Source: Escherichia coli (GTDB lineage: Bacteria > Pseudomonadota > Gammaproteobacteria > Enterobacterales > Enterobacteriaceae). Taken from it: DNA of 34,633 nt. The notes under the pieces are model-generated. The model had not been told where the DNA came from. It saw only the letters and a program-made list of their open reading frames with translations, and did not search any database. Positions within the stretch are counted from its first letter, which is position 1; each line of letters opens with the position of its first letter. Below, piece after piece: positions 20,072 through 20,302 of this stretch. The position numbers and the translations under genes are program-made. Where the stretch lies: the NCBI RefSeq assembly GCF_003334815.1, contig NZ_QOWO01000038.1, one strand, 5' to 3'.

Positions 20072-20190
20072 TGCTTTCCTCTTTTTTCAGGGGTATTACT
20101 GCGCGAGGAAACTAACAGTAAAATTCTGAATCTTTTTGCGCGAAATCAAAAAGAACATCTGTTTGCCACAAAATAATCCGCCTTCGCAAA

Positions 20191-20204
20191 TTGACCTACC
20201 TCAA
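20191..20204. promoter_or_regulatory. FNR-box-like site (TTGAC-N4-CTCAA) in the fdnG/yddG divergent region
   Basis: Matches TTGAT-N4-ATCAA at 8 of 10 positions. fdnGHI is a known FNR- and NarL-activated operon. Position relative to the true transcription start is unverified. Confidence 0.4.
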
Positions 20205-20302
20205 TAGCGGTAGAAAAACGCACCACTGCCTGACAGGCCAGTTAAAAAAATGCTATAAAATTCAGCTTAATTTTTAACGGCAAGAGAGACAAAACAGCGA
20301 GC

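What the first reader, a model, noticed from the sequence alone, without database searches (positions are those of the whole stretch)
20072..20302. FNR-like half-sites in the fdnG/yddG divergent promoter region
TTGACCTACCTCAA at 20191-20204 is a close FNR-box match, located about 120 bp upstream of the fdnG start on the minus strand and about 100 bp upstream of yddG on the plus strand. It fits anaerobic activation of fdnGHI. Whether it also affects the aromatic amino acid exporter yddG is open.
Basis: partly seen in the sequence, partly recalled or inferred. Interest (0 to 1): 0.2.

Follow-up and report, generated by a model that had tools for sequence, protein, structure and literature searches.

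The report
Secondary FNR box overlapping NarL site
The motif is a real, already published FNR-type binding sequence in the E. coli fdnG/yddG control region, but it lies about 55 bp too far upstream to switch fdnG on, overlaps the nitrate-regulator (NarL/NarP) box, and occurs only in Escherichia; the conserved activating FNR site is a different one nearby.

Summary
The window is E. coli K-12 (100% to MG1655). TTGACCTACCTCAA is at 20191-20204 in the 231-bp fdnG/yddG spacer, as reported. It is a strong FNR match: 15.85 bits, the best of 34,620 positions in the window, with about 5e-4 expected by chance in the spacer. Myers et al. 2013 already list this 14-mer as the predicted FNR site under an FNR ChIP-seq peak centred about 10 bp away.

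It is not the site that activates fdnG. No -10 element lies at class II distance from it in either direction. The G of its TTGA half-site is absent from all 57 non-Escherichia orthologous spacers. Eight of its bases belong to the conserved NarL/NarP 7-2-7 box (20197-20212).

The activating site is TTGCGCGAAATCAA (20136-20149). It keeps the same position in all 62 spacers, at fixed spacing to a conserved extended -10 (cTGtTAGTTT).

yddG showed no FNR- or O2-dependent expression change in Myers' tables. The most likely role is an accessory, Escherichia-specific FNR site that competes with NarL/NarP, or has no function. Already known; low interest.

The parts
20191..20204 (.). It is a high-scoring FNR-type palindrome centred at 20197.5, about -97.5 relative to the inferred fdnG start, and is specific to Escherichia.
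   Evidence: Sequence. PWM 15.85 bits, rank 1 in the window. p = 2.3e-6 per position. Listed as TTGAGGTAGGTCAA at 1545292 in Myers 2013 Table S6, under a ChIP-seq peak. Scores -38.7 to +4.3 at this column in 57 non-Escherichia spacers. G at 20193 in 0 of 57.
20197..20212 (.). NarL/NarP 7-2-7 nitrate-response element TACCTCA-AT-AGCGGTA. The heptamers are centred at -100 and -109 of fdnG.
   Evidence: 12 of 14 match to TACYYMT-NN-AKRRGTA. The T-A ends are 56-57 of 57 conserved, and the element sits at the same column in all 62 spacers. fdnG is named as one of four genes with a reported 7-2-7 site in PMC2718512. The -100/-109 numbering is recalled from Li et al. 1994 and Darwin et al. 1996-97, which are not held in the library.
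20136..20149 (.). Conserved promoter-proximal FNR site TTGCGCGAAATCAA (minus-strand reading TTGATTTCGCGCAA). It is centred at 20142.5, which is -42.5, and is inferred to be the class II activating site for fdnG.
   Evidence: Present at the same alignment column in 62 of 62 spacers; 10 of 14 positions are invariant in 58 sequences. PWM 10.5 bits in E. coli and 10.8-16.1 elsewhere. Fixed 22-nt spacing to the -10 in 61 of 62.
20109..20117 (-). fdnG extended -10 element: minus-strand TG-T-TAGTTT. The hexamer TAGTTT runs 20114->20109, with TG at 20117-20116.
   Evidence: Plus-strand AAACTAACAG is conserved at 75-100% in each column across 58 sequences. The geometry fits a class II FNR promoter.
20100..20102 (-). 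Inferred fdnG transcription start. A start at 20100 (an A on the coding strand) gives a 29-nt leader.
   Evidence: Inference. One start at 20100 reproduces all three remembered literature positions at once (FNR -42.5, NarL heptamers -100 and -109) and fits the conserved -10. No start-site dataset could be read here.
20251..20259 (+). yddG extended -10 element TGcTATAAA. The predicted yddG start is about 20265-20269.
   Evidence: Conserved across genera. A sigma70 ChIP-seq peak at 1545240 (window 20256) is in Myers Table S1.
20169..20177 (.). Conserved box CTWAATAGT (CAAAATAAT in E. coli) of unknown role, at -69 to -77 of fdnG.
   Evidence: Columns 20172-20177 are 55-58 of 58 conserved. Spacing to the FNR site is invariant in 62 of 62. 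It reads as a -10-like hexamer on the plus strand, mirror-symmetric to the fdnG -10 about the FNR site.

Best explanation
The 14-mer is a real FNR-type recognition sequence and is probably occupied by FNR in vivo. It is a secondary, upstream site at about -97.5 in the E. coli fdnGHI control region, not the site that activates the promoter.

Activation comes from the weaker but universally conserved FNR site at 20136-20149 (-42.5). That site works with the extended -10 at 20109-20117, and with NarL/NarP bound to the 7-2-7 element at 20197-20212.

It shares 8 bp with the 7-2-7 element, so FNR and phospho-NarL/NarP should exclude each other there.

Shown here: the motif and its score, its restriction to Escherichia, the overlap with the 7-2-7 element, the conserved promoter module, and a published ChIP peak over the region. 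Inferred: the fdnG start at about 20100, occupancy of this site rather than the -42.5 site, and steric exclusion with NarL. Any regulatory effect of the site is unknown. The options are a modest damping of fdnG without nitrate, or no effect at all.
For: Motif and statistics. Published prediction and ChIP peak: Myers 2013, PMC3688515; Grainger 2007, PMC1802558.

Peak position. The ChIP-seq peak centre (window 20187) is +10.5 bp from this site and -44.5 bp from the -42.5 site. Among 63 site/peak pairs in the same tables, only 3 have an offset of -44.5 or lower, while +10.5 is typical.

Conserved fdnG module. The -10, FNR site, conserved box and 7-2-7 element keep fixed spacing in 59-62 of 62 spacers from about 15 genera. 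The leader length varies from 39 to 188 nt.

The conserved site is the best FNR hit in every non-Escherichia spacer but one, where it ranks second to a hit near yddG. The G of TTGA is present in 0 of 57 other sequences. The 7-2-7 match is, and fdnG is named as a 7-2-7 gene. fdnG is in Myers category 3: FNR bound, with no FNR-dependent expression without nitrate.
Against: No start-site data for fdnG or yddG could be retrieved. The papers that mapped the promoter (Li & Stewart 1992; Li et al. 1994; Darwin et al. 1996; Wang & Gunsalus 2003) are not held, so -42.5/-100/-109 rest on my memory plus the internal consistency of the sequence.

ChIP peak centres in that dataset are imprecise: the median offset is 23.5 bp and 32% exceed 44.5 bp. 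The peak could therefore come from the -42.5 site.

Within Escherichia the 14-mer is invariant in 8 diverged sequences (the window and 7 others). With 27 polymorphic sites in 271 nt this is expected about 18% of the time by chance, and half of the motif is already constrained by the NarL heptamer.
Confidence: 0.7

Rival explanations
1. One reading: this box is the FNR site that gives anaerobic (class II, about -41.5) activation of fdnGHI.
For: It is the strongest FNR match in the spacer, it lies under the ChIP peak, and fdnG is FNR-activated.
Against: It would require a start at about 20156, where the best -10 hexamer matches only 2 of 6 bases. The site is absent from all 57 non-Escherichia spacers, which still keep a conserved FNR site and -10 element 55 bp downstream. 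It also overlaps the nitrate-response 7-2-7 element.
Confidence: 0.03
2. A functionless by-product. The motif arose by drift in and beside the NarL heptamer. The ChIP signal is due to the -42.5 site, or to harmless binding, and the box has no regulatory effect.
For: It is specific to one lineage and only 2-3 substitutions away from the ancestral TTTAnnTACCnCnn. There is no excess conservation within Escherichia beyond what the NarL site explains. ChIP peak centres are imprecise. Myers et al. found many FNR peaks with no expression effect.
Against: A 15.85-bit site is expected only 5e-4 times in this spacer. The peak centre fits this site better than the -42.5 site. The 30-mer covering it matches with at least 28 of 30 bases exact in 5,355 of 5,426 E. 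coli genomes.
Confidence: 0.35
3. Tandem-FNR damping with NarL competition. Without nitrate, FNR on the strong -97.5 site suppresses activation from the weak -42.5 site, as at yfiD/grcA. With nitrate, NarL-P/NarP-P displaces it from the overlapping 7-2-7 element and co-activates.
For: The two sites are 55 bp apart, against 53 bp at yfiD (sites 2714579 and 2714632). Suppression by upstream-bound FNR at yfiD is stated in PMC3445967. FNR is bound, yet fdnG shows no FNR-dependent expression without nitrate. The overlap with the 7-2-7 element is 8 bp.
Against: There is no direct test. Other genera have the same FNR/NarL module without the upstream site, so it is dispensable for the basic logic. The spacing differs by 2 bp from yfiD, and the effect of upstream-bound FNR depends on position (my recollection of Barnard et al. 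2003, not held in the library).
Confidence: 0.2
4. The box is an upstream (class I-like) FNR site acting on the yddG promoter.
For: A conserved extended -10 and a sigma70 peak put the yddG start at about 20265-20269. The box is then centred at about -67.5 to -71.5, and -71.5 is a workable class I position.
Against: yddG is absent from Myers' lists of FNR-dependent and O2-dependent operons. Myers assigns the peak to fdnG (Table S9). The site is not conserved, whereas the yddG -10 is. Spacing from the 7-2-7 element to the yddG -10 varies from 56 to 60 nt, so this region is phased to fdnG, not yddG. With the most likely start (20266) the site is off the activating face of the helix.
Confidence: 0.07

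Closest known systems
E. coli fdnGHI operon control region (FNR at -42.5; NarL/NarP 7-2-7 heptamers at -100/-109; Li & Stewart 1992, Li et al. 1994, Darwin et al. 1996-97)
   Same: This is that locus: the window is 100% identical to MG1655. One start at window 20100 reproduces all three published positions.
   Different: It is a second FNR-type palindrome centred at -97.5 that straddles the -100 heptamer. The positions are quoted from memory because those papers are not in the library.
Predicted FNR site 1545292 TTGAGGTAGGTCAA (yddG/fdnG) in Myers et al. 2013, PLoS Genet, Tables S5/S6
   Same: It is the identical 14-mer (reverse complement) at the identical position, and it is marked there as lying at an FNR ChIP-seq peak.
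   Different: In the tables and passages read here, Myers et al. do not mention its overlap with the NarL box or its -97.5 position. They file fdnG under co-activation by NarL.
yfiD (grcA) promoter with tandem FNR sites at -40.5 and -93.5
   Same: Two FNR sites lie about 53-55 bp apart. The upstream one is the stronger match here, and upstream-bound FNR suppresses activation at yfiD.
   Different: At fdnG the upstream site overlaps a NarL/NarP site. No suppression has been shown. The spacing is 55 bp rather than 53.
Overlapping or competing regulator sites at nitrate-responsive FNR promoters (nir, nrf, napF)
   Same: These are FNR class II promoters modulated by NarL/NarP 7-2-7 sites that compete with other DNA-binding proteins (for nir).
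   Different: There NarL displaces IHF or Fis, or NarP competes with NarL. Here the potential competitor would be FNR itself.

Membership tests
FNR binding site | Match to the palindrome TTGAT-N4-ATCAA, with TTGA/TCAA cores | tested here: met
   8 of 10 consensus bases, with both TTGA and TCAA intact. PWM 15.85 bits, above the median (15.3) of 62 ChIP-bound sites. p = 2.3e-6 per position.
FNR binding site | Occupied by FNR in vivo | tested here: inconclusive
   Published ChIP-seq and ChIP-chip peaks cover the spacer. The peak centre is 10.5 bp from this site and 44.5 bp from the other. The resolution does not separate the two sites with certainty.
Class II FNR-activated promoter (site at about -41.5) | Site centred 40.5-42.5 bp upstream of a start, with a -10 element about 29 bp from the site centre | tested here: not met
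   The best -10 at the required distance matches 1-2 of 6 bases in either direction. The conserved site at 20136-20149 does meet this feature.
FNR binding site | Conserved in orthologous control regions | tested here: not met
   Present only in the five Escherichia sequences of the 62-spacer alignment. The 57 others score -38.7 to +4.3, and none has the G of TTGA.
FNR binding site | FNR-dependent expression of a flanking gene through this site | not testable with these tools
   fdnG is FNR-dependent in the literature, but attributing that to this site needs mutagenesis. yddG shows no FNR dependence in Myers' tables.
NarL/NarP 7-2-7 site | Inverted heptamers TACYYMT-NN-AKRRGTA | tested here: met
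   TACCTCAATAGCGGTA at 20197-20212 matches 12 of 14. It sits at the same column in 62 of 62 spacers, with near-invariant TA...TA ends. As a motif alone it is not significant in the window: 2 hits against 1.4 expected.
NarL/NarP 7-2-7 site | Fixed phase relative to the regulated promoter | tested here: met
   The distance from the FNR site to the 7-2-7 element is 61 nt in 59 of 62 spacers and 60 nt in 3. The distance to the yddG -10 varies from 56 to 60 nt.

The most novel reading that the evidence does not exclude
Escherichia alone has evolved a high-affinity FNR site on top of the NarL/NarP activator box of fdnG. FNR bound at -97.5 would hold the promoter down in anaerobic, nitrate-free conditions, in the tandem-FNR manner of yfiD. 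Phospho-NarL/NarP would have to evict it to activate. That would be a lineage-specific sharpening of the nitrate switch through direct competition between FNR and NarL.
Probability: 0.2. Interest if true: 0.35.

Novelty: already known. Interest (0 to 1): 0.15.

Why it matters
FNR control of fdnGHI, and this exact 14-mer under an FNR ChIP peak, are already published, so nothing new is established about the operon. The practical lesson concerns annotation. In this spacer the best-scoring motif, which a genome-wide scan also picked, is not the conserved activating site; the weaker conserved motif 55 bp away is. If the overlap with the NarL box proved functional, it would be a small, testable example of a lineage-specific regulator-competition layer on a textbook promoter.

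Tried and rejected
Papers on the fdnG promoter. I tried to read Li & Stewart 1992 (PMC206306, PubMed 1629153), Wang & Gunsalus 2003 (PMC180993), Lin & Stewart 2010 (PMC3068693), Stewart & Bledsoe 2003 (PMC151514), Lin et al. 2007 (PMC2168752) and Bearson et al. 2002 (PMC116602). None is held.

Start-site data. I looked for fdnG and yddG starts in Thomason 2015 (not held), Conway 2014 (no supplements held), Mendoza-Vargas 2009 (no entry) and Kim 2012 (only an orthologue table).

Site tables. The supplements of MotifAdjuster and of Ravcheev 2007 contain no fdnG site lists. Full-text searches for the motif strings, 'fdnG promoter' and yddG regulation found nothing useful beyond Myers 2013 and Grainger 2007.

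Other checks. The consensus promoter scan found no promoter in 19900-20500, because it requires both hexamers and misses extended -10 and activator-dependent promoters. Rfam and the repeat search of the spacer gave only chance-level hits.

Rejected readings. Selection on the motif within Escherichia beyond that on the NarL heptamer, which is not demonstrable.

Full report
Identity and observation. The window is E. coli K-12: bases 19400-21300 are 100% identical to MG1655, and the RefSeq annotation maps exactly onto it. fdnG lies on the minus strand with its ATG at 20071. yddG lies on the plus strand with its ATG at 20303. Coordinates 20072-20302 are therefore the whole 231-bp divergent spacer.

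Is it more than chance? By the plain criterion of at most 2 mismatches to TTGATN4ATCAA, it is not clearly so. The window has 31 such hits against 19.8 +/- 4.2 expected, and a second hit, TTGCGCGAAATCAA, lies in the same spacer at 20136-20149. I built a weight matrix from 62 other ChIP-bound FNR sites in Myers et al. 2013 Table S6. With it the motif scores 15.85 bits, the best of 34,620 positions in the window and above the median of the training sites. The second box scores 10.48 bits, rank 7. The exact score distribution gives 2.3e-6 per position, or 5e-4 expected in the spacer. This matrix is not independent of Myers' own, but it reproduces their ln p of -12.93.

Published binding data. Myers et al. 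2013 (PMC3688515) list TTGAGGTAGGTCAA at 1545292 for 'yddG/fdnG'. It is marked as lying at an FNR ChIP-seq peak. The peak centre, 1545309, is window 20187. It was called by three ChIP-seq algorithms, by ChIP-chip and in an earlier study. Grainger et al. 2007 (PMC1802558) also list yddG/fdnG.

I compared peak centres with site centres for all 63 bound sites in those tables. The median absolute offset is 23.5 bp and 32% exceed 44.5 bp, so the two boxes, 55 bp apart, are not cleanly resolved.

Promoter anatomy from comparison. A scan of one genome per species with YddG returned 80 loci. In 69 of them fdnG is divergently adjacent, which gave 62 non-redundant spacers including the window. They come from Escherichia, Citrobacter, Salmonella, Klebsiella, Raoultella, Enterobacter, Kluyvera, Leclercia, Kosakonia, Lelliottia, Phytobacter and others. 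The alignment shows five conserved blocks:
- Plus-strand AAACTAACAG at 20109-20118. On the fdnG strand this reads cTG-T-TAGTTT, an extended -10 element.
- TTTTTGCGtcAAATCAA at 20133-20149, the second FNR box. Ten of its 14 positions are invariant in 58 sequences.
- A box CTWAATAGT at 20169-20177.
- The inverted heptamers TACYYMT-NN-AKRRGTA at 20197-20212.
- TGcTATAAa at 20251-20259, an extended -10 element for yddG.

Spacings are rigid on the fdnG side. The -10 to FNR box distance is 22 nt in 61 of 62 spacers. The FNR box to conserved box distance is 35 nt in 62 of 62. The FNR box to 7-2-7 distance is 61 nt in 59 of 62. By contrast, the distance from the fdnG ATG to the -10 ranges from 39 to 188 nt, and the distance from the 7-2-7 element to the yddG -10 ranges from 56 to 60 nt. 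The module formed by the -10, the FNR box, the conserved box and the 7-2-7 element is therefore the fdnG promoter.

The conserved FNR box is centred 28.5 bp from the first base of the -10 hexamer, which is class II geometry. A start at window 20100 (an A) places the conserved box at -42.5 and the heptamer centres at -100 and -109. These are the three positions I remember from Li & Stewart 1992, Li et al. 1994 and Darwin et al. 1996-97. I could not read those papers here, so the numbers are recollection. That one start satisfies all three is nevertheless a non-trivial check. fdnG is named as one of four genes with a reported 7-2-7 site in PMC2718512.

Lineage restriction and overlap. The conserved box is the top FNR hit in every non-Escherichia spacer except one, where it ranks second to a hit near yddG. 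The G of TTGA (20193) is found in 0 of 57 other sequences (T in 49). The A at 20203 is found in 5 of 57, where the NarL consensus T is the commonest base. So the motif arose in Escherichia by a few substitutions beside and inside the left NarL heptamer, and 8 of its 14 bp (20197-20204) belong to the 7-2-7 element.

Within E. coli, the 30-mer 20186-20215 matches with at least 28 of 30 bases exact in 5,355 of 5,426 complete genomes, although the spacer as a whole is polymorphic. In seven diverged Escherichia sequences compared with the window, none of the 27 variable positions falls inside the 14-mer. That is expected about 18% of the time by chance, and half of the motif is already constrained by NarL. 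Selection for FNR binding is therefore not demonstrated.

What it most likely does. The best-supported reading is an accessory, Escherichia-specific FNR site, probably occupied when NarL/NarP are inactive, that cannot be bound together with NarL-P/NarP-P. The steric exclusion is inferred from the 8-bp overlap. Myers et al. place fdnG in their category 3: FNR is bound, but there is no FNR-dependent expression without nitrate. That is compatible with FNR sitting unproductively on the strong upstream site while the weak -42.5 site needs NarL for activation.

Two further readings remain open. One is a functionless by-product. The other is yfiD-like damping by tandem FNR. The yfiD sites are 53 bp apart, and suppression by upstream-bound FNR there is stated in PMC3445967. 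In this model the damping would be relieved when NarL displaces FNR.

An effect on yddG is unlikely. yddG appears in none of Myers' lists of FNR- or O2-dependent operons. The peak is assigned to fdnG. The site is not conserved although the yddG -10 is. The region is also phased to fdnG rather than to yddG.

Comparison and novelty. This is the textbook fdnGHI control region, and the motif itself is in a published table. The only under-described aspect is that the published best-scoring site is not the conserved activating site and overlaps the NarL box. I rate it already known and of low interest.

In passing. The conserved box CTWAATAGT (AATAAT in E. coli) lies mirror-symmetrically to the fdnG -10 about the FNR site: 29.5 bp against 28.5 bp from the site centre. 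It could be the -10 of a divergent FNR-dependent promoter starting near 20184, or an alpha-CTD or NarL-related element. This is untested.

Noticed in passing
window 20169-20177: A conserved box CTWAATAGT (CAAAATAAT in E. coli) keeps an invariant 35-nt spacing to the conserved FNR site in 62 of 62 spacers. On the plus strand it reads as a -10-like hexamer (AATAGT/AATAAT) 29.5 bp from the FNR site centre, mirroring the fdnG -10 on the other side. It may be a divergent FNR-dependent promoter with a start near 20184, or an alpha-CTD/NarL-related element at -69 to -77 of fdnG.
   Followed up: partly
window 20251-20259: The yddG promoter appears to be an extended -10 element, TGcTATAAA, conserved across about 15 genera. 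It coincides with a sigma70 ChIP-seq peak (1545240, window 20256) in Myers Table S1.
   Followed up: partly
window 20072-20108 and orthologous loci (e.g. L008, L016, L023, L057): The fdnG leader between the -10 and the ATG varies from 39 to 188 nt. Citrobacter, Salmonella and Phytobacter carry insertions of about 55-150 nt that E. coli lacks.
   Followed up: no
window 24363-24376: GTGACGTTGATCAA (13.9 bits) lies inside narU, upstream of narZ. It is Myers' predicted site 1541120, listed there as not bound by FNR and covered by H-NS/Fis.
   Followed up: no
window 21900-21913: ATGACATTGATCAA (13.1 bits) is the third-best FNR-type match in the window. It lies inside the frameshifted leucine-rich-repeat pseudogene downstream of yddL.
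   Followed up: no
   Followed up: no
window 19400-21300 (hits H1-H3): In three E. coli genomes the match is split into two pieces, with an IS1A transposase and yddG annotated twice. This suggests an IS1 insertion in yddG. Six copies of the spacer are on records typed as plasmids.
   Followed up: no
window 23786-23801: A second 7-2-7-like sequence, TACTCCTTTTGGGATA, lies inside narU. It is at chance level: 2 hits in the window against 1.4 expected.
   Followed up: no
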